In this document: positions 1-12,492 of the stretch, piece after piece
Position numbering within the stretch: position 1 is the stretch's first letter
Layout: every line of letters starts with the position of its first letter
Assembly: GCA_030617085.1 (NCBI GenBank)
Contig: JAUWWB010000001.1
Coordinates: forward strand, 1-24,532
Direction: 5' to 3'
Source of the DNA: Candidatus Omnitrophota bacterium
GTDB taxonomy: Bacteria > Omnitrophota > Gorgyraeia > Tantalellales > Tantalellaceae
DNA length: 24,532 nt
Notes under the pieces: generated by a model
What the model was told of the DNA's origin: nothing
Seen by the model: the letters and a program-made list of their open reading frames with translations, nothing else
Databases searched by the model: none
Position numbers and translations under genes: made by a program

Positions 1-37
1 ATGTTCAAGGATTTGGATGCAAGCCATGGCGATCCAA

Positions 38-230
38 TTGTAATTTATAGTAATTCATAGTAATTTGTTGTAATTTGTTGTGATTTATCATACTTGTGGA
101 ATGGCTACGCCAATGAATTAGTACCAACTACTATCAATTACAATCAATTACCACAAATTATTGAAATTCCGTCACAATGAATTACTATCAATTACCATGA
201 ATTACTACAAATTACAATGAATTACCATAA
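38..230. repeat. AT-rich 10-nt periodic repeat element with inverted arms (copy 1)
   Basis: On +, TAA at 41, 51, 61, 71 and TGA at 81 (GTAATT-type units). The opposite arm has AATTA(C) units at 10-nt spacing over ~131-160 and 175-230. Lies just downstream of the thiL stop. Confidence 0.9.
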
Positions 231-246
231 GTCGCCACCTGACTCC

Positions 247-1143
247 TCACAAGTGCCTAAATCCCTCCATCCTCAACGCGCTGATGCGCCCCTCTTTGCC
301 TATCAGGGTCAGGCCGTCCTTTTTCGGCACTATCTCACCGATGACAAAGTACCGGGGCTCTTGCTTCCGCGACTTCACCTCCAGGAACAGCTTCCTCGCT
401 TCCTTTACCCCCATAGTGAACAATAGCTCAAAGCTTTCCCCGTAATAAAGGGCATCGTGAAGCGTCAGCGCCTTCGAAAGGGGGATAGCGCCCTCGTATA
501 GCCTGCATCCCACGCCGCTTTCGCGGCATACCCGGCCGATGTCCGGGGCGATCCCGTCCGAGACGTCTATCATCGAACTCACCTTGTAGCGCCCCGAAAG
601 GAACCGCGCCTCCTCCAGGCGCGGCGAAAAATCAAGATGTTCCTTTCTCCCGTTCCTGACGGGACCGGTAATCAACACAAGTTCTCCCTTTTTTGCGCCG
701 CTTCGTGTTATCAGTCTTTTCTTTTCCACAAATCCGATGACAGAAACATCGATCACCAGGGTGTCGGACCGGTTGGTATCGCCCCCCACGACCTTGATAT
801 CATATTCTTTACAGATGCCGAATATCCCGTCATAAATGCCCCGGATCGCGGCTTTTTTCGTCCCGGGAGGAACACCGATAGTCACCGTAATATATCCGGG
901 CACGCCCCCCATCGCGGCGACATCGCTGATATTGACCGCGACGGCCTTCCGCCCGACCCTCTTATACCCCGCCTGCCTGAGATAAAAATGCGTCCCCTCC
1001 ACAAGCATATCCGTGGCCCATAAAAGATAACGCTTCCCGTCATACTTGAGGACCGCGCAGTCGTCACCGATACCGGCAATAACGTCCTCCCCCGGACTCC
1101 CGGCGCGCTTTCTGATCTCGTCTATCAATTCTATCTCTCTCAT
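247..1143 (-). CDS. thiL: Thiamine-monophosphate kinase
   Basis: 298 aa. N-terminal E-x-x-L-I, GIGDDCAV, TDMLVEGTHF, NISDVAAMGG, VVGGDT, MIDVSDG and GESFELLFT match ThiL motifs. Confidence 0.95.
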   Translation of the reverse strand: MREIELIDEIRKRAGSPGEDVIAGIGDDCAVLKYDGKRYLLWATDMLVEGTHFYLRQAGYKRVGRKAVAVNISDVAAMGGVPGYITVTIGVPPGTKKAAIRGIYDGIFGICKEYDIKVVGGDTNRSDTLVIDVSVIGFVEKKRLITRSGAKKGELVLITGPVRNGRKEHLDFSPRLEEARFLSGRYKVSSMIDVSDGIAPDIGRVCRESGVGCRLYEGAIPLSKALTLHDALYYGESFELLFTMGVKEARKLFLEVKSRKQEPRYFVIGEIVPKKDGLTLIGKEGRISALRMEGFRHL

Positions 1144-1155
1144 GTACCGCCCCCA

Positions 1156-1231
1156 TTGTCATCCTGAGCGAAGCGAAGGATCTCTGGCGAGTCGACGTGG
1201 GAGAGATCCTTCGCTTCGCTCAGGATGACAA
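1156..1231. repeat. TGTC(CGTC-class)-tagged REP-like dimer with a 30-bp perfect inverted repeat (copy A)
   Basis: TTGTCATCCTGAGCGAAGCGAAGGATCTCT (1156-1185) and its exact reverse complement (1202-1231), with a 16-nt spacer. Each arm carries an internal ATCCT..AGGAT palindrome. Confidence 0.9.
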
Positions 1232-1294
1232 ACCGCGACAACTCACGGCCTGCACCAAGGGTTCGCTCCCTCGTTCAGAACAAGACACATGATC

Positions 1295-1329
1295 CCATCA
1301 ACCATCAACCATCCACTATCCACCCACCA
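1295..1329. repeat. 7-nt tandem repeat overlapping the mtnA stop codon
   Basis: CCATCAA CCATCAA CCATCCA CTATCCA CCCACCA. The CTA at 1316-1318 is the mtnA TAG. Confidence 0.8.
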
Positions 1330-2350
1330 ACTTCGCAATCTTCCGCCTATCCGGCCTCCTGATAACCCCGCGTTCGGTGATGATCGCCGTGATCAGCTTC
1401 GCCGGGGTGATATCGAATGCCGGGTTTCTGACATCGACATCTTTCAGGGTCACGTATTCTCCGCCCATTTTCTTGACTTCCAGGGGGGAGCGTTCCTCGA
1501 TAGGGATCGCGCCCCCGTCGGCCACGGACAGGTCAAAAGTGGAACGGGGGGCGGCGACATAGAACGGAACTTTGTGATAATGGGCCAACACCGCCAGGTT
1601 ATACGTCCCTATCTTGTTCGCGACGTCTCCGTTAGCCGCGATCCGGTCGGCGCCGACCATGACCGCGTCGACCTCGTTCTTTGCCATCAGCGAAGCCGCC
1701 ATGTTGTCGCATATCAGCGTAGCGGGGATATTCGCTTTCGACAGCTCCCATACCGTGAGCCGGGCGCCCTGCATGACCGGGCGCGTTTCATCGACGTAGA
1801 CCCGGCGAACCTTCTTCCCGGCAGCAAAGATCACCCCTAGAGCCGTGCCATACCCGCCGGTTGCCAGGCCGCCGGCGTTGCAGTGCGTTAGAATATTTGA
1901 GCCTTTCGCGATCAGCGCCTTTCCTTCCCGGCCTATCGCGCGGCATCGTCTCCTGTCTTCATCAAGTATGGCATGGGCTTCGTAGAGAACCATGCTCTTT
2001 AGTTCTCCCACCGGCATCCCTTTGTTCTTTTTCACGAGCTCATCGACTCTCTCCAGCGCCCAAAAAAGATCCCTGGCCGTAGGGCGCGAAGCGGCCAGGC
2101 GCTTCATGGTCCTTTCCAGCTCCTTTTTAAAGCTTCTGAAGCCCCTTGCCCTGCTCTTACGCACACCAAGATAAACCCCGTAAGCCGCCGCTATCCCGAT
2201 CGCCGGAGCCCCCCTGACCGCCATCGCTTTTATGGCGCGCACAACATCCCCATCCGTAAAACACGCCGCATACCGCGTCTTCCCCGGAAGAAGCCTCTGG
2301 TCGATCACCTCAAGCCTGTCGTTTTTCCAACGTATCGTTTCGTATTTCAT
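1316..2350 (-). CDS. mtnA: S-methyl-5-thioribose-1-phosphate isomerase (eIF-2B family)
   Basis: 344 aa. Motifs MAVRGAPAIG, SRPTA, THCNAGGLAT, DETRP, GADRIAANGDVANKIGT and NPAFDITP. Confidence 0.93.
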   Translation of the reverse strand: MKYETIRWKNDRLEVIDQRLLPGKTRYAACFTDGDVVRAIKAMAVRGAPAIGIAAAYGVYLGVRKSRARGFRSFKKELERTMKRLAASRPTARDLFWALERVDELVKKNKGMPVGELKSMVLYEAHAILDEDRRRCRAIGREGKALIAKGSNILTHCNAGGLATGGYGTALGVIFAAGKKVRRVYVDETRPVMQGARLTVWELSKANIPATLICDNMAASLMAKNEVDAVMVGADRIAANGDVANKIGTYNLAVLAHYHKVPFYVAAPRSTFDLSVADGGAIPIEERSPLEVKKMGGEYVTLKDVDVRNPAFDITPAKLITAIITERGVIRRPDRRKIAKLVGG

Positions 2351-2351
2351 T

Positions 2352-2365
2352 TTATCAGTTATCAG
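2352..2365. repeat. TTATCAG x2 heptad abutting the mtnA start codon
   Basis: The minus strand reads CTGATAA CTGATAA A ATG. Confidence 0.6.
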
Positions 2366-2372
2366 GGCAAAA

Positions 2373-2398
2373 GGGCAGGCACAGGGGCCTGCCCCTAC
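2373..2398 (-). repeat. GTAG-tagged REP palindrome (copy 1)
   Basis: Minus strand GTAG-GGGCAGGC-CCCTGT-GCCTGCCC: 8-bp stem, 6-nt loop and 5' GTAG tag, the architecture of RAYT-associated REPs. Confidence 0.85.
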
Positions 2399-2408
2399 AT
2401 GCAGTTAG

Positions 2409-2422
2409 GCCACTACGAACTA
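2409..2422. repeat. TAGTTCG-type heptad supplying the stop codon of the CPBP gene
   Basis: The minus strand reads TAGTTCG TAGTGGC. The first TAG (2420-2422) is the stop. Confidence 0.8.
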
Positions 2423-3490
2423 CCCTCCCCCGACGCTCCTCCCCGCGAATACCAGCGCTACCATTGCCAGGTTGTGCATGATGTGCACCGATATTGAGGG
2501 GATAAGCGAACCCGTTTTTTCATAGAGGTATGCCAGCAGCATGCCGAGCGCCAGTATGGGGAAAAATCCCACGGGATGCGCGTGCAGAAAAGAAAACACC
2601 GCGGAAGTCCCCACCATGGCCCAGAACATCCCCAGCCTTTTCCTGACGGCAGTGTACATGAAACCCCGGAAAAAGATCTCTTCAGCGATCGGGCCGAAAA
2701 CAGCCGCGAAGAGCGCCGAGAACCACAGGAGCGACACCTCCTTTTCCTCAATAAAGACGCGCACGATGGGCTGGATGGGAGGCCGGTATTCCAACAGTCT
2801 CGTCACGAAAAAGGTCAGCATCATTATCCCCGCGATAACGGGAACCAGCGCTACATACCCGACCGCGGCGTAAAAGACCCCGCTCCGCAAACCTCTGGGA
2901 GTAAGGCCTATGGCGTCCACGCCCTGCCCGTGCTTCCTGATGACAAAGTACAGGATAACACTGATGCCCACCACGTTCATAACGGCCGTATTGAACACCA
3001 TGCGAAAATTCTCGTTATGGAGAACGGGAAAAAGCCTTGACGCGATGGCCTGGATGATCATGAACGCGTACCCGCAGGAAAGAAATATCAACACCACCCT
3101 GGCGACGTCGGCCATGCCCCAGCGTGGCCTATCCTGCCGCACGAGCCGTATGCTGATCGGTTTCCGGCGCGCCCAGCGGGCTATGAAATACACATCCAGG
3201 AACAAGCCGACCAGTATCACAAACAATACCAGCAGGTTGAGTATCCCCAGGAACAGGTATAACACCGGATTTTGCGCGGCAAGCCGCTCGAGCTTCTCTT
3301 CCCACTCCCTTACGCCCAGCTGTTCGACCGGCGCCTTCTCCGCGGGCCGTTCCCGTAGGACCGCTGCCTCTTTCTCAAGCGGCCTTTCCCCCACCCGGCC
3401 CGCCAGAACCAGAAGGTTCACCCCCACAACGAAGGCAAGCAAAAAAACATACAACCTGTTCCGCCGCATGATATCGAAGAGCTCCCCCAT
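2420..3490 (-). CDS. CPBP-family (CAAX/Abi-like) intramembrane metalloprotease
   Basis: Multiple hydrophobic helices. Motifs AEEIFFRG (EExxxR), FSFLH (FxxxH) and HIMHN (HxxxN). Start set at ATG 3490, which has GGAGG upstream, rather than GTG 3508 inside the repeat. Confidence 0.88.
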   Translation of the reverse strand: MGELFDIMRRNRLYVFLLAFVVGVNLLVLAGRVGERPLEKEAAVLRERPAEKAPVEQLGVREWEEKLERLAAQNPVLYLFLGILNLLVLFVILVGLFLDVYFIARWARRKPISIRLVRQDRPRWGMADVARVVLIFLSCGYAFMIIQAIASRLFPVLHNENFRMVFNTAVMNVVGISVILYFVIRKHGQGVDAIGLTPRGLRSGVFYAAVGYVALVPVIAGIMMLTFFVTRLLEYRPPIQPIVRVFIEEKEVSLLWFSALFAAVFGPIAEEIFFRGFMYTAVRKRLGMFWAMVGTSAVFSFLHAHPVGFFPILALGMLLAYLYEKTGSLIPSISVHIMHNLAMVALVFAGRSVGGG

Positions 3491-3505
3491 AAGCGCGCCT
3501 CCGCT

Positions 3506-3582
3506 CACTACGAACTATGGCAAAAGGGCAGGCACAGGGGCCTGCCCCCTACATGCAATTAGGCCACTACGAACTAAAACTA
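3506..3582. repeat. Composite heptad / GTAG-REP (copy 2) / heptad cassette
   Basis: CACTACGAACTA at 3506-3517 and again at 3565-3576 brackets the REP GGGCAGGCACAGGGGCCTGCCCCCTAC (3526-3552, one extra C). The CTA at 3580-3582 is the TatD-rSAM stop. Confidence 0.85.
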
Positions 3583-4956
3583 CCCGACAATATCCATCCG
3601 CCTCAAGCGGAAGCCCACGCCCAGCTCTTCCGCTATGCGGCGGCATCCGGCAACGCCTTCTTCTCCCAGCATATCCAGGCAGGTCACTTCGACTTCTATC
3701 CCCCGGGCTTTGCATCCGGCGATAAAATCCAGGATAGCTTTGTAAGCGCGCTCTCCGAAAACCGGCCTCGAGATCCGGGCGTATCCCGCCTCGTCCGGCG
3801 CGTTCAAACTGACCGAGACCCTGTCAATGATCCCTTTGAACTCCGCGGTGATGTCCCTGCCGCTAATAAGGCTGCCTTCGCCGTTAGTCACCAGACGCAC
3901 CCTGCCGCCTTTTTCCTTTACGAAAGAAGCTACCCTTTTTATGACCTCCAGCCGGAGCGTGGGTTCGCCGTAACCGCAGAACACCACCTCGGCGTAGCCG
4001 GATATCTCACCCATGGCTTCCATCACTTCCTCCGTAGTCGGCTCGGCGTCCAGCTTGAGAGCATGCCCTTTCACGTAATTGGAATACTGGCGCGTGCAGA
4101 ACGTGCACCTGTTTGTGCACCTGTTGGTGATATTGAGATACAGAGAGTCCCTTATGGGATACGCCACCGCGGGCTTCTCTTCTATCCCGAGGCGAAAAAG
4201 CTGATTCGCGTTATGCGTGGTGATCCTCGCGATATCCTCCGCGGTCAGACCGTATATGCCGGCATGGACGTCCAGGAGCCGGCCGATATACGCCGGTTCG
4301 TTCCTTTTTCCCCTGAAAGGCACGGGCGCGATAAACGGCGAATCCGTTTCCAGAAGCAGCCGCTCGGGGGGAACGTGTTTTATCAGGTCCCGCAGGCGGG
4401 CGGCTTTTTCGAACGTTATGTTCCCCGCGAATGAAACATGCATGCCGAGCGACAAAAGTTCCCCCACGAGGGCCGCGTCCGCCGAAAAGCAATGGACGAC
4501 CCCCCTTGAGGCGGGCGGCATCAATTCCTTGAGGATGCTCAAAAAATCTTCGCCCGCGTCACGGTTGTGGAGTATTACAGGCAGGTCAAACTCATCAGCG
4601 ACGCGCAGACAATCCCGGAAAAGCCTTTTCTGGTTTTCCGGCTTTGAGTATCCCCTGTAATAATCCAGGCCTATTTCCCCTATGGCTACGACTTTGTCAC
4701 TCTTGAGGGCGATGTCCCTCAGGCGCGATATCCCTGCCTTATCAACCCTGTCCGCTTCATGGGGATGTATGCCCACGGCGGCGAATACCGGACGGTGCTG
4801 CTTAGCCAGGGCCACAGCCCTCTCGCTGCCCGCTATATCCGTACCGGGCACGACGAAACGCACCACCCCGGCAGAAGCAGCCCTCTCCAGGACTTCGCCC
4901 AGGTCGTCCTTGTAATCAGGAAAATCCAAATGGCAGTGAGTGTCTACAAGTCGCAT
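3580..4956 (-). CDS. tatD: TatD-family hydrolase fused to a C-terminal TatD-associated radical SAM domain
   Basis: N-terminal DTHCHLD, AAVGIHPH, AIGEIGLDY, LHNR, HCFS and LETDSPF (TatD). C-terminal LYLNITNRCTNRCTFC (CxxxCxxC) and VVFCGYGEPT (radical SAM). Confidence 0.92.
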   Translation of the reverse strand: MRLVDTHCHLDFPDYKDDLGEVLERAASAGVVRFVVPGTDIAGSERAVALAKQHRPVFAAVGIHPHEADRVDKAGISRLRDIALKSDKVVAIGEIGLDYYRGYSKPENQKRLFRDCLRVADEFDLPVILHNRDAGEDFLSILKELMPPASRGVVHCFSADAALVGELLSLGMHVSFAGNITFEKAARLRDLIKHVPPERLLLETDSPFIAPVPFRGKRNEPAYIGRLLDVHAGIYGLTAEDIARITTHNANQLFRLGIEEKPAVAYPIRDSLYLNITNRCTNRCTFCTRQYSNYVKGHALKLDAEPTTEEVMEAMGEISGYAEVVFCGYGEPTLRLEVIKRVASFVKEKGGRVRLVTNGEGSLISGRDITAEFKGIIDRVSVSLNAPDEAGYARISRPVFGERAYKAILDFIAGCKARGIEVEVTCLDMLGEEGVAGCRRIAEELGVGFRLRRMDIVG

Positions 4957-4970
4957 CGTTAGCTTCCGGG

Positions 4971-5058
4971 TTAGGTTATAGGTTTTAGCAGCTTAATCCC
5001 TAAAACTTGGAATCTAACACCTAAAACCTAGAACCTATAACCTATACCCTGAACTCCG
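4971..5058. repeat. 7-nt periodic repeat element with inverted arms (TAGGTTN / NAACCTA)
   Basis: On +, TAG at 4972, 4979, 4986 and CTA at 5000, 5014, 5021, 5028, 5035, 5042, all on a 7-nt register. The arms are separated by only ~11 nt. Confidence 0.88.
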
Positions 5059-6633
5059 CTATTTGATCCGCGGAAACAGCGGCTCTCCCTTGGCGGTCTT
5101 CGTTCCCGGGGGGAACCTTCTCCAGTCCCGGGGACCCTTCGTGCCGCTTATCTCTTTTCTGACGGCTTCCGTATCCATGTCCTCTTTTAATCCAAGCTGC
5201 TCCCACATCTTTCTCGCTGTCGAGGGCATGAAGGGCAGGAGCGCGATCGCGGCCGCTCTCAGCACCTCCAGCAGGTCCGCGATGATCAGTTTTATCGCCT
5301 CCATGTTCCCCGCTTTTGAGTATTCCCATGGCGCCGACGCCTCGATATACTTATTCGCTTTCCCGACCACCTGCATTATCGCTTCAAGCGCTTCCTTCAA
5401 TAAAAGTTTCGGGCTCAGCAGACGGTCGCTTATTGCCGGGAAAAGGCCGCGGACGGCATCTCTGATGACGTCAGAGCGCCGGTCCTGCTCTTCGTCTCCG
5501 GCGGCCCGTGGAGGCGCGGGCGAGGTGCCGGCGAAATATTTTTCCACCATCGTAAGCGTCCTGTTCAGAAGGTTCCCCAGGTCATTGGCAAGGTCGCTGT
5601 TATAAACGGTGACCAGCACGTCTTCGCTGAAAGAGCCGTCCTGCCCGAAAGCCACTGTTTTTAACAGGAAATATCGAAGAGGGTCGACCCCGTATTTGCC
5701 GGTCATCTCTACGGGGTCGACGATGTTCCCCCTGGATTTGGACATCTTCTCTTTGCCAATCTTCCACCAGCCATGGGCAAAGATGGTCTTCGGCATGGGC
5801 ATGCCCACGCTCTTGAGCATGATGGGCCAGTACACCGCGTGGTGCCTGAGTATGTCTTTCGCGATCACGTGTATGTCGGCGGGCCAGAACTCTTCGAATT
5901 TCTTCCGCGCCTTAAGCCCTGAAGCGTAGTTGATCAAGGCGTCAAACCAGACATAGACGATATAATCCCTGTCGAACGGCAATTCGACCCCCCACGACAT
6001 CCTTTCCCTGGGCCGCGAAATACACAGGTCGTTCAGCTCTTCCCGCAGGAAACCCAGAACTTCGTTCTTCCTGTATTCCGGCATTACGAACTCAGGGTTG
6101 GCGTTAATATGGTCGATGAGCCACTGCTGGTATTTGCTCATGCGGAAAAAATAATTTTTCTCCCTGATCCGCTCCACCGGCCGGTTGCAGTCGGGACAGA
6201 CGCCGTTTTCGGCCTGCGCGTCGGTCCAGAAAGTCTCGCATGGCGTGCAATACCACCCGTCATATTCACCACGGTAGATATCGCCTTTGTCCTTCATCTT
6301 CTCCAGGAACTCCTGGACGACTTTCTTGTGGGACTGGTCGGTCGTGCGGATGAACCCGTCGTACCGTATGCCCAGAGCGCCCCAGACGTTCTTGAAGTTG
6401 GCGACTATGGCATCGACGAATTCCTTCTCTTTCCCTTTTTCAAAACCCGCTTTCAGGCACGCCTTCTCGATCTTTTCGCCGTGTTCGTCCGTACCCGTGA
6501 GGAAGAACACCGCCTCGCCCAGCATCTTGTGATACCTGGCGAGCGCGTCGACGGCGATCTGCGTGTAAGCGTGCCCGAGGTGGGGATTGGCGTTTACGTA
6601 ATAGATGGGCGTTGTGATATAAAACTTTCGCAT
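5059..6633 (-). CDS. metG: Methionine--tRNA ligase (short form, no C-terminal tRNA-binding appendix)
   Basis: MRKFYITTPIYYVNANPHLGHAY (HIGH), TGTDEHG, Zn knuckle CTPC..CPDC, YVWFDAL and KMSKS. Start moved to ATG 6633 (AAGGAGG upstream), giving 524 aa. Confidence 0.97.
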   Translation of the reverse strand: MRKFYITTPIYYVNANPHLGHAYTQIAVDALARYHKMLGEAVFFLTGTDEHGEKIEKACLKAGFEKGKEKEFVDAIVANFKNVWGALGIRYDGFIRTTDQSHKKVVQEFLEKMKDKGDIYRGEYDGWYCTPCETFWTDAQAENGVCPDCNRPVERIREKNYFFRMSKYQQWLIDHINANPEFVMPEYRKNEVLGFLREELNDLCISRPRERMSWGVELPFDRDYIVYVWFDALINYASGLKARKKFEEFWPADIHVIAKDILRHHAVYWPIMLKSVGMPMPKTIFAHGWWKIGKEKMSKSRGNIVDPVEMTGKYGVDPLRYFLLKTVAFGQDGSFSEDVLVTVYNSDLANDLGNLLNRTLTMVEKYFAGTSPAPPRAAGDEEQDRRSDVIRDAVRGLFPAISDRLLSPKLLLKEALEAIMQVVGKANKYIEASAPWEYSKAGNMEAIKLIIADLLEVLRAAAIALLPFMPSTARKMWEQLGLKEDMDTEAVRKEISGTKGPRDWRRFPPGTKTAKGEPLFPRIK

Positions 6634-7439
6634 GCGCAGTTCTTTTCCTCCTTCGTCTCTAAGGTTACTTCTTTGATCTTCCCCCCACCGAGATCGACGG
6701 TCACGGCCCTCCTCAAGGAATTTACAGCGATAACCTTTCCATTGCCGTGTTCGGTCTTGATCTGGCTGCCCTCCCTCGGCAGATGCCTCGAACACTCGCT
6801 GTAGTTCCTGTACTCGTAGCCGAGGCAGCACATGAGCCTGCCGCAAAGGCCCGATATCTTCGAGGGATTAAGCGGAAGGTTCTGGACCTTGGCCATCTTT
6901 ATCGTGACGGGGTCAAAGTCTTTCAGAAAAGACATGCAGCAAAGCTTCCTCCCGCAAGAGCCGTGCCCCCCGAGCATTTTCGCTTCGTCCCTCACCCCTA
7001 TCTGCCGCAACTCGATACGGACGCGGAAGATACTTGCCAGGTCCCTTACCAGGCCGCGAAAGTCCACGCGGTTTTCGGAGGTAAAGTAAAAAATGATCTT
7101 CGACCTGTCAAACGAGTATTCCGCGGCCACAAGTTTCATCGGCAGCCTGTGTTCCCGGATCTTCTGCCTGCAGACGCTCATGAGGTCCTTCGTCTTTGCC
7201 CTGTTCCTGGCGATCTGCTCATTATCCCAGGGATTAGCCTTCCTGATGATCTTGCGCAAAGTCTTCCCCGTGGAGCCGGTGTCGGGGGCCTTTTCGCCGG
7301 AGACGACTATCTCGCCGTAATCAAGACCCCTGTCCCCTTCCACTATTACCATATCCCCCACATCAAGTTTCATGCCGTTGGCAAGGAAATGCCTTATCTC
7401 CCCCGCCGCCCGCAGCTGTATCTGGACTGTATCATGCAT
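6594..7439 (-). CDS. ricT: PSP1-domain protein (RicT/YaaT family)
   Basis: FYFTSENRVDFR, RIELRQIGVRDEAK, CGRKLCC, LPLNPSKISGLCGRLMCCL. Start at ATG 7439 with GGAGG SD. Conserved position between holB and metG. Confidence 0.9.
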   Translation of the reverse strand: MHDTVQIQLRAAGEIRHFLANGMKLDVGDMVIVEGDRGLDYGEIVVSGEKAPDTGSTGKTLRKIIRKANPWDNEQIARNRAKTKDLMSVCRQKIREHRLPMKLVAAEYSFDRSKIIFYFTSENRVDFRGLVRDLASIFRVRIELRQIGVRDEAKMLGGHGSCGRKLCCMSFLKDFDPVTIKMAKVQNLPLNPSKISGLCGRLMCCLGYEYRNYSECSRHLPREGSQIKTEHGNGKVIAVNSLRRAVTVDLGGGKIKEVTLETKEEKNCACESFISQRPSIT

Positions 7440-7475
7440 TGCTGTTCCTCCATATGCTGTGCCAGTTACCATAAT

Positions 7476-7576
7476 AAATCAAATATCAAAATGCAAAATC
7501 ATAGAGCCTCTTTTCGAATTCCTTTTTGAATTTTGATATGTCATTTTGCATTTTAATTTTTGATTTTTAATTTTTA
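7476..7576. repeat. AT-rich heptad element with 24-bp inverted arms (AAAAT-C/T/G-AA type)
   Basis: Arms 7476-7499 and 7543-7566 are reverse complements at 22 of 24 positions. On the minus strand the tract starts at the holB TAA: TAAAAAT TAAAAAT CAAAAAT TAAAAT GCAAAAT. Confidence 0.88.
7486..7551 (-). pseudogene. Putative truncated four-helix-bundle protein gene remnant (MQNDISKFKKEFEKRLYDFAF*)
   Basis: 21-codon ORF read directly from the minus strand inside the heptad element. The resemblance to four-helix-bundle (TIGR02436/PF05635-like) N-termini is from memory and was not searched. Confidence 0.55.
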
Positions 7577-8548
7577 CTTAATCGCCCCCGGCAGTGCCTG
7601 GGCTACGAGCTTCGGGTTGACGTTGCCTGCCAGGGCGAGTTTCATGTTTATGAGGCGCTCTACCGTGCCGTATATCTTCTCTATCGAATATTCACTGAAA
7701 AACCGGTACATGTCGGTACCCACGATCCCTTTATCCAGGGCCATTTCCGCCAGGCCTTCTTTCCCCAGGGCCACATCGCGGAAAAACATGATCAGCATTT
7801 CAAGGTCTTCAATAAGCCGGTCCCTGCTTTCGGTGTCCCAGTTCATGCAGGACGAGTTCTTCTCCCTCCCGATATCCCCGGCCAGGGCCATGAGCTCGTC
7901 TTTCCGCTCCTCGACGCCCGCTTCGATCATCTCCAGGGCCCTGCCCGGCGAACCCTGGGAAAAGCGCGCGAGAAAATACGCGCTCTCCTCCCCGGCACCG
8001 GATCTCTCCATGATGATATCCCTGACGCAGCACGCGGGGAGGGCGTGGAACCTCACTTCCGCGCACCGGGAGATCACGGTCGGCAGCAGCAACTCCTTTT
8101 TGTTCGTAATAAGTATCAGCAAAGAGCAACCCGGAGGTTCCTCCAGCACCTTCAAAAGAGCGTTGGACGCCTGGGGCGTCATCATGTGGGCGTCCTCTAT
8201 CACGCACGCGCTGACAGGCGCTTCGTAAGGTTTCAGGCCCAATACGTCTTTTACCTTCCTTATTTCCTCGATCCTTACGGCCCTGTTCTTTTCCGGCTTG
8301 ATCCAGGTAAGGTCCGGATGTTCAAGCGCGCTTACCCTCCGGCAGGCAGGGCACCGCCCGCATGCCGCGCCGCTGGAGCTCCTCCCGGGGCAGACAAGCT
8401 CCATGACAAACGCTTTCGCGCAAAGGGCGCGCCCCACCCCTACGGGGCCCGAAAAAAGATAACTGCCGGCTATCCTCCCGGAAGACAGGCTGTTGGAAAG
8501 ATACCGGACGGCGTTACTCTGACCCTTTATATCGCTCAATAAGACCAT
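7574..8548 (-). CDS. holB: DNA polymerase III delta' subunit
   Basis: YLFSGPVGVGR (degenerate Walker A), CGRCPAC Zn motif, HPDL, IEDAHMMTPQASNALLKVLEEPP and LLPTVISRC. Start at ATG 8548 with AGGAG upstream. Confidence 0.93.
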   Translation of the reverse strand: MVLLSDIKGQSNAVRYLSNSLSSGRIAGSYLFSGPVGVGRALCAKAFVMELVCPGRSSSGAACGRCPACRRVSALEHPDLTWIKPEKNRAVRIEEIRKVKDVLGLKPYEAPVSACVIEDAHMMTPQASNALLKVLEEPPGCSLLILITNKKELLLPTVISRCAEVRFHALPACCVRDIIMERSGAGEESAYFLARFSQGSPGRALEMIEAGVEERKDELMALAGDIGREKNSSCMNWDTESRDRLIEDLEMLIMFFRDVALGKEGLAEMALDKGIVGTDMYRFFSEYSIEKIYGTVERLINMKLALAGNVNPKLVAQALPGAIK

Positions 8549-9167
8549 ATACCTGCTCCTTGACGAGACCGTAAGTCCCGTCCGGGTCATCGCCGACCTT
8601 TACGACCTTGATCCTGTCGGGGGACCTTTCCGCGAGAGCGAGATAACCCCGGCGGACTTTTTCATGAAAGTCCCTGCTCCTTTTCTCCATCCTGTCAGCC
8701 GGATGCTCGGCCGCGGCCCGCGCGAGTCCCGTTTCCACATCCACGTCCAGCAGGATCGTGAGGTTCGGACAAAGTCCGCCGGTGGCCACCCGGTCCACCT
8801 TCTCTATAAGTCCCAGGTCCATTCCGAGCCCGTACCCCTGGTAAGCGAATGTGGCGGTATTGAAACGGTCGCATATGACGACTTTCCCCGTCTCGAGGGC
8901 CGGGATGATGACCTCTTCGACGTGCTGCGCCCTGTCGGCCTCAAAAAGAAAAAGTTCCGCCTGTTCATCGAGCCGGATGTCATCTTTTTGCAGGAGCATG
9001 TCCCTTATCCTGCGGCCGAGCGCCGTGCCGCCGGGCTCCGCCGTATGCAGGACATCATACCCGTCGGATAAGAGGTCATCGACCAGCCGGCGCGACTGCG
9101 TGCTCTTTCCGCTTCCTTCGGGCCCTTCAAGCGTTATGAAGAGGGCCCTCCTCAGGTTTTTCGGCAT
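8514..9167 (-). CDS. tmk: Thymidylate kinase
   Basis: FITLEGPEGSGKSTQ (P-loop), EPGGT, ELFLFEADRAQH, CDRF and AYQGYG. Confidence 0.96.
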   Translation of the reverse strand: MPKNLRRALFITLEGPEGSGKSTQSRRLVDDLLSDGYDVLHTAEPGGTALGRRIRDMLLQKDDIRLDEQAELFLFEADRAQHVEEVIIPALETGKVVICDRFNTATFAYQGYGLGMDLGLIEKVDRVATGGLCPNLTILLDVDVETGLARAAAEHPADRMEKRSRDFHEKVRRGYLALAERSPDRIKVVKVGDDPDGTYGLVKEQVYGLIERYKGSE

Positions 9168-11191: not shown

Positions 11192-11221
11192 CTCCGAACT
11201 ACGAACTCCGAACTACGAACT
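11192..11221. repeat. Alternating CTCCGAA/CTACGAA heptads supplying the yacL stop codon
   Basis: Four units plus CT. The CTA at 11213-11215 is the stop, and the last two Ser codons lie in or overlap the repeat. Confidence 0.88.
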
Positions 11222-12325: not shown

Positions 12326-12492
12326 GTAATTCGATGGTAATTCGTAGTAATTCGTAGTAATTTATAGTAATTCTTTGTGCTTAATTACTCCGGGAAACAA
12401 TAAATTGCTCCTATATTAAATCTCCCGAACATATCACTTCAAGAAATTACAATAAATTACTATGAATTACAATGAATTACTATAAATTACTA
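12326..12492. repeat. AT-rich 10-nt periodic repeat element with inverted arms (copy 2)
   Basis: Left arm on + has TAA at 12327, 12338, 12348, 12358, 12368 (TGGTAATTCG TAGTAATTCG TAGTAATTTA TAGTAATTCT). Right arm has AATTAC ending at 12450, 12460, 12470, 12480, 12490. Confidence 0.92.

What the first reader, a model, noticed from the sequence alone, without database searches (positions are those of the whole stretch)
7476..7576. Truncated four-helix-bundle-like ORF trapped between heptad arms: a candidate parent element
Seen: the minus strand reads holB-TAA, heptads, then ATG CAA AAT GAC ATA TCA AAA TTC AAA AAG GAA TTC GAA AAG AGG CTC TAT GAT TTT GCA TTT TGA (7551-7486), or MQNDISKFKKEFEKRLYDFAF*. 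The ATG lies in the upstream arm and the frame runs into the downstream arm at GATTTT. From memory (unverified), small four-helix-bundle proteins (TIGR02436/PF05635-like) of CPR and PVC bacteria often start MQNDxxKFKxEFKKRLYxF and are flanked by such AT-rich heptads. Inference: the gene body was deleted by joining an internal GATTTT to the similar arm sequence. This would make the other tracts empty derivatives of a gene-bearing cassette. Caveat: the + strand also reads MQN from the opposite arm, so the first codons are repeat-derived.
Basis: partly seen in the sequence, partly recalled or inferred. Interest (0 to 1): 0.8.

Follow-up and report, generated by a model that had tools for sequence, protein, structure and literature searches.

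The report
Four-helix-bundle gene stub in heptad hairpin
The 100-base AT-rich spacer between holB and ricT is the gutted remnant of a small gene cassette found across many bacterial groups: both 7-base-repeat arms and the first 17 to 20 codons of its four-helix-bundle gene survive. It ties the gene-less 7-base-repeat hairpins of this arm type to a gene-carrying parent.

Summary
The minus strand at 7551-7486 reads MQNDISKFKKEFEKRLYDFAF*.

- **Arm part.** Codons 1-10 are repeat-arm sequence. The arm word occurs 9 times in this genome.
- **Wide spread.** An exact 22-mer from the arm occurs at more than 114 loci in genomes labelled as many different phyla. At 14 of 82 inspected sites it starts a four-helix-bundle gene (123 aa where complete; PF05635/TIGR02436) beginning MQNDKSKFKxEFKKRLYxF, closed by an inverted AT-rich heptad arm.
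- **Homology beyond the arm.** The 21 non-arm bases encode EFEKRLY. This is the only one of 2.15 million six-frame heptapeptides in the genome to reach its profile score.
- **Deletion.** The tail is the outer part of the 3' arm, joined through the shared word GATTTTGCA. Other genomes hold a series of comparable internal deletions.
- **Discrete block.** A contig about 97-98% identical, from another metagenome, lacks exactly 108 bases (7466-7573), with GTAA on both sides. No relative has a gene at this junction, so the deletion may predate the insertion here.
- **No protein function is likely.** What remains is an AU-rich hairpin.
- **Mechanism unknown.** How the cassette moves was not established. 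RNase III and reverse transcriptase were not found in this genome.

This scan has already reported heptad-armed cassettes of this kind on other DNA (417 notes). I found no paper describing them outside rRNA.

The parts
7466..7573 (-). The whole element. It is a 108-base block that is present here and exactly absent in a close relative. Its boundaries can shift by up to 4 bases.
   Evidence: a contig from run X4 (8 differences in 451 bases on the ricT side) joins 7465 directly to 7574, with 4 letters fitting either side.
7574..7577 (-). GTAA, which contains the holB stop codon TAA (7576-7574). It is one copy of the 4-base direct repeat that brackets the block. The stop codon also starts the first heptad.
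7466..7469 (-). Second copy of the GTAA direct repeat, at the inner edge of the block. It may be a target-site duplication or just microhomology.
7522..7573 (-). 5' arm: AT-rich heptads followed by the conserved composite end word. It includes the ATG (7551-7549) and codons 1-10 (MQNDISKFKK).
   Evidence: 9 copies in the genome. (more than 114 loci in other genomes). (alignment with intact cassettes).
7501..7521 (-). The only non-arm sequence: codons 11-17, EFEKRLY. This is the surviving piece of the start of the four-helix-bundle gene body.
   Evidence: 13-18 of 21 bases identical to intact genes, with differences mostly at third codon positions. (17 bits, unique among 2.15 million positions)..
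7492..7500 (-). GATTTTGCA, codons 18-20 (DFA). The word fits both the gene (some family members read RLYDFAL) and the 3' arm, so the deletion joint lies somewhere within it.
   Evidence: P0115 reads RLYDFAL. (3' arms of L104 and L126 carry GATTTTTGCATTTTGATATTTGA).
7473..7500 (-). Shortened 3' arm, 28 bases against about 50 in intact cassettes. It is complementary to the 5' arm.
   Evidence: (the arms pair; -22.4 kcal/mol).
7486..7551 (-). Relic ORF of 21 codons plus stop. It is probably not a functional gene.
   Evidence: No Shine-Dalgarno sequence is visible upstream. The block is absent in the X4 relative.
7437..7451 (-). Probable true ricT start: ATG at 7439-7437, with GGAGG at 7451-7447. 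The ATG at 7472-7470 that ORF callers pick lies inside the element.
   Evidence: Relatives align only from residue 8-13 onward. The empty-site allele lacks the upstream ATG. Sequence.

Best explanation
The tract is an internally deleted, non-coding copy of a heptad-armed four-helix-bundle (4HB) cassette.

The intact unit is about 450 bases long. It consists of:
- a 5' arm of AT-rich heptads that runs into the first 9 codons;
- a 123-codon PF05635 gene;
- a 3' arm of about 50 bases that is the inverted complement of the 5' arm.

The unit sits wedged between the stop codon of one gene and the start codon of the next gene on the same strand. In this copy, everything from about codon 18-20 to the inner half of the 3' arm has been lost. 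The joint lies in a 9-base word that the gene and the arm share, which suggests slipped-strand or microhomology-mediated deletion (inferred).

The remaining 108-base block sits exactly at the holB stop codon and is bracketed by GTAA. It now encodes nothing useful. It can only act as an AU-rich hairpin of about 26 paired bases in the holB-ricT transcript.

Shown: homology of the stub to the gene, the architecture of the intact cassettes, the presence/absence polymorphism of the block, and the deletion series in other genomes. Inferred: the deletion mechanism, and that the cassettes are selfish mobile units. Unknown: what moves them, and whether the deletion happened at this locus or before the copy arrived.
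For: - **Sequence and neighbours:**
- **Arm copies:** one search shows the copies in the genome; searches count 9 A-type and 11 B-type cassette ends, with the arm word found in none of 53 genomes of the same family.
- **Wide spread:** the exact 22-mer occurs at more than 114 loci, under record titles that name many phyla. Twelve complete 123-aa ORFs, plus 2 cut off by locus ends, start with it.
- **Family membership:** searches place these ORFs above the PF05635 and TIGR02436 cut-offs.
- **Alignment of stub to intact cassettes:**
- **Significance:**, EFEKRLY is the only one of 2,150,722 heptapeptides to reach 17 bits. In one search the stub scores 26.5 bits (E = 1.4e-5), the best hit in the genome, and no intact gene of this type is present.
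- **Deletion series elsewhere:** (L113, L076, L127, L147, L103, L115).
- **Empty site:** a close relative lacks the block, the X2 strain carries the same stub, and the arm recruits summed depths of 680-6,800 in four metagenomes.
- **Selection on the cassette:** codon positions 1+2 are 75% identical and position 3 is 39%, so the protein is under purifying selection. The arms are 67-72% identical and the outer flanks 27%.
- **Hairpins:**; the arms close a hairpin in both the stub and an intact cassette.
- **Wedged position:**; intact cassettes abut the upstream stop and the downstream start.
- **Generality:**; 23 of 28 testable 4HB genes in this genome and its relatives have complementary flanks (z > 4).
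Against: - No intact gene occupies the holB-ricT junction in any of 29 relatives. The only informative allele is an empty site. In-situ decay of a full cassette is therefore not demonstrated.
- The unique part is only 21 bases.
- The 92.7%-complete assembly has no intact gene of this type that could be the parent.
- Codon 5 is Ile here. It is never Ile in 75 family proteins or in the 14 gene-bearing copies, but it is common in gene-less copies. This suggests a long non-coding history, or homogenisation with other arms.
- The 4HB protein has no known catalytic domain, so 'mobile element' rests on distribution patterns only.
- Two metagenome scans for a near-identical intact parent found nothing.
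Confidence: 0.87

Rival explanations
1. An already truncated, non-autonomous copy (arms plus 5' stub) inserted at the holB stop codon as a 108-base unit. On this view no full gene ever sat at this locus. This is a variant of the main explanation, not a contradiction of it.
For: -: a clean empty site in a close relative, with 4-base repeats at both edges.
- most relatives have an ancestral-looking junction of 10-30 bases, and none carries a gene there.
- one Nitrospinota genome holds four copies with the same 5' stub (L103, L115, L127, L147), so truncated forms can multiply.
- the Ile-5 arm variant is seen only in gene-less copies.
Against: This exact stub occurs only once in the genome. A precise loss in the X4 lineage cannot be excluded. 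Insertion of a full cassette followed by deletion, before the X1 and X2 strains split, fits the data equally well.
Confidence: 0.45
2. The match is chance. AT-rich heptads happen to give an open frame whose Lys/Glu/Phe-rich peptide only looks like a 4HB N-terminus.
For: Ten of the 21 codons are repeat sequence. The peptide alone hits no Pfam or NCBIfam model. The other strand also reads MQN.
Against: The non-arm heptapeptide is unique among 2.15 million positions at its score. It lies in frame and directly after the arm, as in the intact genes. At DNA level it differs from them mainly at synonymous sites. Comparable stubs with other breakpoints exist elsewhere.
Confidence: 0.03
3. The tract is a host regulatory element: a terminator, attenuator, RNA-processing site or mRNA-stabilising hairpin between holB and ricT. 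Its resemblance to the gene would then be incidental to its function.
For: A stable hairpin sits between two co-transcribed genes. The same junction carries unrelated heptad arrays in at least 7 relatives, which could mean that a structure is favoured there.
Against: No terminator-like or promoter-like site lies in the tract, and no Rfam family matches. A close relative does without it, as do most relatives, which have junctions of 10-30 bases. RNase III was not found in this genome, nor in 36 of the 41 genomes searched, this one included.
Confidence: 0.1
4. The 21-codon ORF is a real micro-protein gene.
For: It is an open frame with an ATG, on the same strand as the operon.
Against: It has no Shine-Dalgarno sequence, and its start codon is paired within the hairpin. 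It encodes at most the beginning of the first of four helices: the Pfam match starts at residues 11-16. It is absent in the X4 relative. The other arm copies in the genome read differently after codon 10.
Confidence: 0.02

Closest known systems
ORF-bearing intervening sequences (IVS) of 23S rRNA, such as the 428-nt Coxiella burnetii IVS that encodes S23p (PMC4990558); also Leptospira, as cited in that paper
   Same: The cargo family is the same (PF05635) and the unit size is similar, about 430-450 nt. Both have terminal inverted repeats that close a stem. In Coxiella, tandem heptamers (GACAGAT, in variable copy number) lie just upstream of the ORF. The distribution is sporadic and suggests horizontal spread.
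   Different: The element here lies in an mRNA spacer between protein-coding genes, not in an rRNA helix. Only a 5' stub of the ORF is left. IVS elements are excised by RNase III, but no RNase III domain was found in this genome, nor in 36 of the 41 genomes searched, this one included.
MITE-like non-autonomous derivatives of DNA transposons (general knowledge: internal-deletion derivatives that keep both ends)
   Same: Both ends are retained and the interior is lost. Other genomes show a graded series of breakpoints. Gene-less copies outnumber gene-bearing ones: about 20 ends and no intact gene of this type in this assembly. The block shows presence/absence variation with a short flanking repeat.
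   Different: The parent carries no recognisable transposase or recombinase, only a four-helix-bundle protein of about 120 aa. The arms are built of tandem heptads rather than unique terminal inverted repeats. The 4-base flanking repeat is not established as a target-site duplication.
Intergenic heptamer repeats of cyanobacteria (STRR, recalled from memory) and the TAACTGA repeats of Beggiatoaceae, cyanobacteria and Bacteroidetes (PMC4679880)
   Same: Both are tandem 7-base units in intergenic spacers, often next to stop or start codons. This genome even uses the same units: the AACTGAT family equals TAACTGA, and ACTGGGG is the complement of CCCCAGT.
   Different: Those repeats were described as direct repeats with a suggested regulatory role. 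A text search of PMC4679880 found no mention of four-helix-bundle or IVS genes. Here the heptads form inverted arm pairs around a defined gene or its remnant.
Avd, the accessory protein of diversity-generating retroelements
   Same: It belongs to the same broad four-helix-bundle superfamily. There are weak NF033474 hits to the intact cassette protein and to this genome's two other 4HB genes.
   Different: The scores are far below the Avd cut-off. No reverse transcriptase was found in the genome, and no template or variable repeat was looked for.

Membership tests
PF05635 / TIGR02436 four-helix-bundle protein (23S rRNA IVS protein) | A domain of about 106 residues that scores above the curated cut-off | tested here: not met
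   The 21-aa peptide hits no Pfam or NCBIfam model, even at E = 10. Only 17-20 codons of the gene remain.
PF05635 / TIGR02436 four-helix-bundle protein (23S rRNA IVS protein) | The surviving residues are homologous to the N-terminus of bona fide members | tested here: met
   The intact relatives pass both models. The stub scores 26.5 bits against their profile and is the best hit in the genome. The non-arm heptapeptide is unique at 17 bits. The closest family N-terminus reads KKEFKKRLYDFAL.
Heptad-armed 4HB cassette, MQND / AAAAATC-arm type (an operational class, not a published family) | A 5' arm of AT-rich heptads ending in the conserved composite word that contains the ATG | tested here: met
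Heptad-armed 4HB cassette, MQND / AAAAATC-arm type (an operational class, not a published family) | A 3' arm that is the inverted complement of the 5' arm and closes a hairpin | tested here: met
   A shortened arm of 28 nt still pairs with the 5' arm. The intact cassette L102 folds in the same way.
Heptad-armed 4HB cassette, MQND / AAAAATC-arm type (an operational class, not a published family) | An intact 123-codon cargo gene | tested here: not met
Heptad-armed 4HB cassette, MQND / AAAAATC-arm type (an operational class, not a published family) | Wedged between the stop codon and the start codon of two genes on the same strand | tested here: met
   The element starts at the holB stop and ends 26 nt before the probable ricT start (7439). 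Most of the 12 intact cassettes sit the same way, as do the further examples.
23S rRNA intervening sequence (IVS) | Inserted in a 23S rRNA helix (helix 9, 25 or 45) | tested here: not met
   It lies between holB and ricT.
23S rRNA intervening sequence (IVS) | Excised from the transcript by RNase III at the stem formed by the arms | tested here: inconclusive
   No RNA data were laid on this stretch. RNase III domains PF14622 and PF00636 were not found in this 92.7%-complete genome. PF00636 was found in only 5 of the 41 genomes searched, this one included.
MITE / non-autonomous transposon derivative | Terminal inverted repeats, and many copies per genome | tested here: met
   The arms are inverted. 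The genome holds 9 + 11 cassette ends. This particular stub form is single-copy.
MITE / non-autonomous transposon derivative | Target-site duplication | tested here: inconclusive
   A 4-base GTAA lies on both sides of the 108-base block. This is one case only, and it could equally be microhomology.
MITE / non-autonomous transposon derivative | The parent element encodes a transposase | tested here: not met
   The only cargo is a PF05635 protein.
Rho-independent terminator | A GC-rich stem followed by a U tract | tested here: not met
   The scan finds no terminator-like site in 7466-7576. The stem is almost entirely A-U.

The most novel reading that the evidence does not exclude
Heptad-armed four-helix-bundle cassettes would be an undescribed class of mobile unit found across many phyla. 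Their arm sequence would be matched to their own 4HB protein. Here the arms are kept as DNA while synonymous sites are near saturation. Their internally deleted progeny, of which this stub is a caught-in-the-act example, would be the source of the 'orphan' intergenic heptamer-repeat hairpins of bacteria (STRR, TAACTGA and the like). The 23S rRNA intervening sequences would be just the special case that landed in rRNA.
Probability: 0.45. Interest if true: 0.9.

Novelty: new variant of a known kind. Interest (0 to 1): 0.68.

Why it matters
**What is at stake.** Three things have stayed unexplained for decades:
- what the very common "23S rRNA intervening-sequence / four-helix-bundle" proteins do;
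- where rRNA intervening sequences come from;
- why some bacteria fill their intergenic spacers with tandem 7-base repeats.

**What this locus adds.** It links them physically. A gene-less heptad hairpin still carries 17-20 codons of the gene. This shows that empty hairpins of this arm family descend from gene-bearing cassettes.

**What else the data offer.**
- A defined 108-base insertion/deletion allele with exact edges at a stop codon.
- An arm word conserved across groups labelled as many phyla.

Both are concrete handles for experiments on how the cassettes move and what the protein binds.

**Practical point.** The element supplies a false upstream ATG for ricT. Elements like it also break assemblies, since several arm copies lie at contig ends.

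Tried and rejected
- **Peptide against family models.** hmmscan of the 21-aa peptide against Pfam and NCBIfam gave nothing. The peptide is too short, so I replaced this with a custom profile of the intact family.
- **Arm word in close relatives.** A pattern search in 53 genomes of the same family gave 0 hits. The arm type is not inherited within the lineage.
- **Gene at the junction in relatives.** None in 29 genomes.
- **Near-identical intact parent.** Two metagenome-contig scans, one for the Glu-13 variant and one for the Ile-5 variant, each gave 0 hits.
- **IVS-like processing by RNase III.** The enzyme was not found here or in most relatives. I therefore do not adopt it as the mechanism for this genome.
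- **Retro-mobility.** No reverse transcriptase domain was found in the genome.
- **Terminator or promoter reading.** No such site lies in the tract.
- **Known RNA family.** Only sub-threshold miRNA-like hairpin hits.
- **Compensatory changes between the coding 5' arm and the 3' arm.** I looked in N-terminal variants (MEND, MKND, MQSD, MQDD). One suggestive paired change was seen (L187) and several changes were uncompensated. With repeat arms the pairing register is ambiguous, so the result is inconclusive.
- **Taxon of the genome.** It was not determined; the protein-atlas look-up was uninformative.

Full report
**1. The observation**

The window is contig C46 of a 1.08 Mb genome (54% GC, 172 contigs, 92.7% complete). 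On the minus strand, holB (7574-8590; PF13177) ends in TAA. About 100 AT-rich bases follow, and then a PSP1/ricT gene (PF04468).

Translation of 7551-7486 gives exactly MQNDISKFKKEFEKRLYDFAF*. TRF reports period-7 tracts on both sides. The two arms pair as RNA at -22.4 kcal/mol, with a z-score of -3.4, and none of 200 shuffles folds as well.

**2. How much of the ORF is repeat**

The genome holds about 424 merged period-7 or period-10 arrays. Many are inverted arm pairs around a centre of 10-60 nt.

The arms of this locus belong to an AAAAATC/AAATATC family with a composite end. The 25-mer covering codons 1-7 occurs 9 times in the genome, against 0 for the reversed control word. A second end type occurs 11 times.

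Codons 1-10 are therefore arm sequence, and the last four codons are arm-like too. Only 7501-7521 (EFEKRLY) is unique.

**3. Is the recalled gene family real?**

The arm word was absent from 53 genomes of the same family. The record titles name Planctomycetota/Phycisphaerae, Patescibacteria groups, Nitrospirota, Nitrospinota, Chloroflexota, Omnitrophota, WOR-3, deltaproteobacterial lineages and others. By my estimate, fewer than one hit is expected by chance.

I inspected 82 occurrences:
- 12 start a complete 123-codon ORF, MQNDKSKFKxEFKKRLYxF..., and 2 more are cut off by the locus end.
- These ORFs pass PF05635 (61-70 bits; cut-off 33.8) and TIGR02436 (75-78 bits; cut-off 24).
- A protein search finds 4,408 clusters at 90% identity with E ≤ 1e-10. 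Most of the best 120 are exactly 123 aa, and sources name them "four helix bundle protein".
- Their N-termini were not selected through the DNA word. They read M[QE]NDK[SAEL]KFK[KN][ED]FK[KSR]RLY[NSD]F[TVA]L.

**4. Architecture of the intact unit**

Each intact gene is preceded by about 25 nt of AT-rich heptads that continue into the first 9 codons. Directly after the stop comes an arm of about 50 nt that is the inverted complement. In the minimum-free-energy fold of L102, the two arms close the whole unit, with a z-score of -3.9.

Among the 12 intact copies:

| Region | Mean pairwise identity |
|---|---|
| Codon positions 1+2 | 75% |
| Codon position 3 | 39% (27% after shuffling) |
| Arms | 67-72% (43-48% after shuffling) |
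| Sequence beyond the arms | 27% |

The protein is therefore under purifying selection. The arms are constrained as nucleic acid, and the unit ends at the arms.

The units sit between genes on the same strand. The upstream ORF ends 8-32 nt before the ATG in 8 of 12 cases. The next gene starts 36-65 nt after the stop in 10 of 12. Examples are cassettes between the large and small aconitase-family subunit genes, and between dxs and lpxC.

**5. Is the stub homologous beyond the arm?**

Bases 31-51 of the relic ORF are 13-18 of 21 identical to the same positions of the intact genes. The differences lie mostly at third codon positions.

I built a profile from the 12 intact proteins. EFEKRLY scores 17.0 bits at positions 11-17, and no other of the 2,150,722 six-frame heptapeptides of the genome reaches that score. 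In a six-frame hmmsearch of the genome the stub is the top hit (26.5 bits, E = 1.4e-5, profile positions 1-20). It ranks above the genome's two real but distant 4HB genes (21.3 and 17.1 bits) and the arm-only copies (4-13 bits). Chance is excluded for practical purposes.

**6. The joint**

After codon 17 the locus reads GATTTTGCA and then TTTTGATATTTGATTT.
- Family members exist with RLYDFAL.
- The 3' arms of L104 and L126 contain GATTTTTGCATTTTGATATTTGA in their outer half.

The same 9-base word thus fits both partners. The joint lies somewhere in 7492-7500. What is missing is codons ~18/21-123, the stop codon and the inner ~24 nt of the 3' arm. An alternative is a joint at the inner TTTTGCA word plus the loss of two heptads by slippage.

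**7. The same thing elsewhere**

Other genomes hold comparable relics with different breakpoints:
- L113 keeps 21 N-terminal and 7 C-terminal codons.
- L076 keeps 9 N-terminal and about 27 C-terminal codons.
- Four loci of one Nitrospinota genome share the stub ...DEFKRRNYSF.
- Many others keep the arms alone.

This is the pattern expected for non-autonomous deletion derivatives.

**8. Is the block a discrete unit?**

Public contigs were laid on 6900-8200.
- Run X4 (subsurface metagenome) has one contig with 8 differences in 451 bases on the ricT side. It joins 7465 directly to 7574, skipping exactly 108 bases, and 4 letters (GTAA on the minus strand) fit either side.
- The empty allele reads holB-TAA, then 27 nt containing GGAGG, then the ATG at 7439. 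This resembles the junctions of 10-30 nt in most relatives.
- Run X2 (hydrothermal vent) carries the same stub: its contig runs from 7203 to 7549.
- The arm region recruits summed depths of 680-6,800 in all four runs, so this arm type is abundant in many organisms of these sediments.

The empty allele rests on one low-depth contig (2.5x). A de Bruijn assembly artefact across only 4 shared bases is unlikely.

**9. Relatives**

The holB-ricT synteny holds in all 29 relatives examined. None has a 4HB gene there. At least seven carry unrelated heptad arrays or other repeats at this very junction (G013, G002, G021, G005, G007, G022, G017).

In this genome and 40 relatives:
- 30 genomes have PF05635 genes.
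- 23 of 28 testable genes have significantly complementary flanks, mostly with visible 7-base periodicity and a copy-specific unit sequence.
- In this genome, the 4HB gene on C81 lies between GGGACTG/CAGTCCC arms, and three empty arm pairs of the same unit exist elsewhere.

**10. Mechanism**

What can be said:
- The locus is a dead copy, and its only plausible activity is as a hairpin.
- It contains no terminator-like or promoter-like site and no known RNA family.

The published analogue is the ORF-bearing IVS of 23S rRNA. The Coxiella IVS is 428 nt long, has a 28-bp terminal stem, carries tandem heptamers upstream of the S23p ORF, and is cut out by RNase III (PMC4990558). I do not transfer that processing step to this genome. 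RNase III domains were not found here, and PF00636 was found in only 5 of the 41 genomes searched, this one included. No reverse transcriptase was found either. How the cassettes move remains open.

A search for compensatory changes between the coding arm and the 3' arm was inconclusive.

One detail fits a long non-coding history. Codon 5 is Ile (ACATATC), which makes the 5' arm the exact complement of the 3' arm word. Ile was not seen at this position in the 75 MQND-type family N-termini tabulated or in the 14 gene-bearing copies. It is common in gene-less copies.

**11. Literature and earlier notes**

Full-text searches found no paper that links PF05635 genes outside rRNA with heptad arms. 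MacGregor 2015 (PMC4679880) describes intergenic TAACTGA repeats, and a text search of that paper found no mention of this gene.

This scan has already noted heptad-armed 4HB cassettes on other DNA: 417 notes from at least 350 genomes. The class is therefore not new to the scan. What this locus adds:
- a gene stub inside an otherwise empty hairpin;
- an exact empty-site allele;
- the cross-phylum arm word.

**12. Verdict**

Whether the deletion happened at this locus is undecided. Relative to the published record, the feature is a new variant of a known kind (IVS-like elements).

Noticed in passing
whole genome G000 (e.g. window 37-225, 4999-5050, 11195-11221, 12326-12492, 20690-20714, 22280-22477): There are about 424 merged period-7 or period-10 tandem arrays in 1.08 Mb, roughly one per 2.5 kb. 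They fall into a few unit families (AACTCCG, AACTACG, AAAACCT/AACCTAT, ACCATCC, AAAAATC, AACTGAT, ACTGGGG, and AATTAC decamers). Many form inverted arm pairs around a centre of 10-60 nt.
   Followed up: partly
G000 and 40 relatives: RNase III domains (PF14622, PF00636) were not found in this genome. PF00636 was found in only 5 of the 41 genomes searched in the class, and in 1 of 24 other genomes of the family. These genomes are nonetheless full of long intergenic hairpins. Lack of the dsRNA nuclease may be what lets such hairpins accumulate inside operons.
   Followed up: partly
L043, L046, L054, L061, L045, L056, L062 (holB-ricT junction of relatives): The same junction has independently acquired unrelated heptad arrays or other repeat tracts in at least seven other genera. 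Most relatives keep a spacer of 10-30 nt.
   Followed up: partly
G000 C81:6757-7215 (L001); C12:6946-7027; C113:2753-2841; C120:3043-3131: An intact 4HB gene sits between GGGACTG/CAGTCCC arms, and the same genome has three gene-less arm pairs of that unit. From memory, the unit is the complement of the cyanobacterial STRR heptamer CCCCAGT.
   Followed up: partly
G000 C3:4388-4457, C5:3820-3918, C75:4769-4837, C74:~1740-1805: Arm pairs of the same AT-rich family enclose a perfect GC-rich hairpin (CCCCAAACC...GGTTTGGGG) instead of a gene remnant. Together with the A and T tracts, these look like bidirectional terminators.
   Followed up: no
G000 C39:957-1205 and C39:2883-3111: Nested elements. 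Arm pairs of this family carry other repeats in their centre. One is a second heptad pair (CTTCGTG/CACGAAG); the other is a longer GC-rich palindromic element.
   Followed up: no
window 7437-7472: The longest ricT ORF starts at an ATG (7472-7470) that belongs to the inserted element. The likely true start is the ATG at 7439-7437, behind GGAGG (7451-7447). Relatives align from residue 8-13, and the empty-site allele lacks the upstream ATG.
   Followed up: yes
L103, L115, L127, L147 (one Nitrospinota MAG, JACRGM01): Four loci share the same truncated 5' stub (MQNDKSKFKDEFKRRNYSF). Three of them also share an identical upstream flank. Truncated copies therefore multiply as part of larger repeats.
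   Followed up: partly
window 3580-4956 (minus): A single 458-aa ORF combines a TatD-type DNase domain with a radical-SAM domain. This is an unusual fusion that I did not examine.
   Followed up: no
L190, L191: An MQDD-variant cassette has a T-rich arm upstream, in 3'-arm orientation, instead of the usual A-rich 5' arm. This suggests elements abutting head-to-tail.
   Followed up: no
G000 AACTGAT-family arrays (e.g. C59:4632-4781, C41:7853-7938, C140:1522-1646): The unit is a rotation of TAACTGA, the heptamer described as abundant direct repeats in Beggiatoaceae, cyanobacteria and Bacteroidetes (PMC4679880). Here it forms inverted arm pairs.
   Followed up: no
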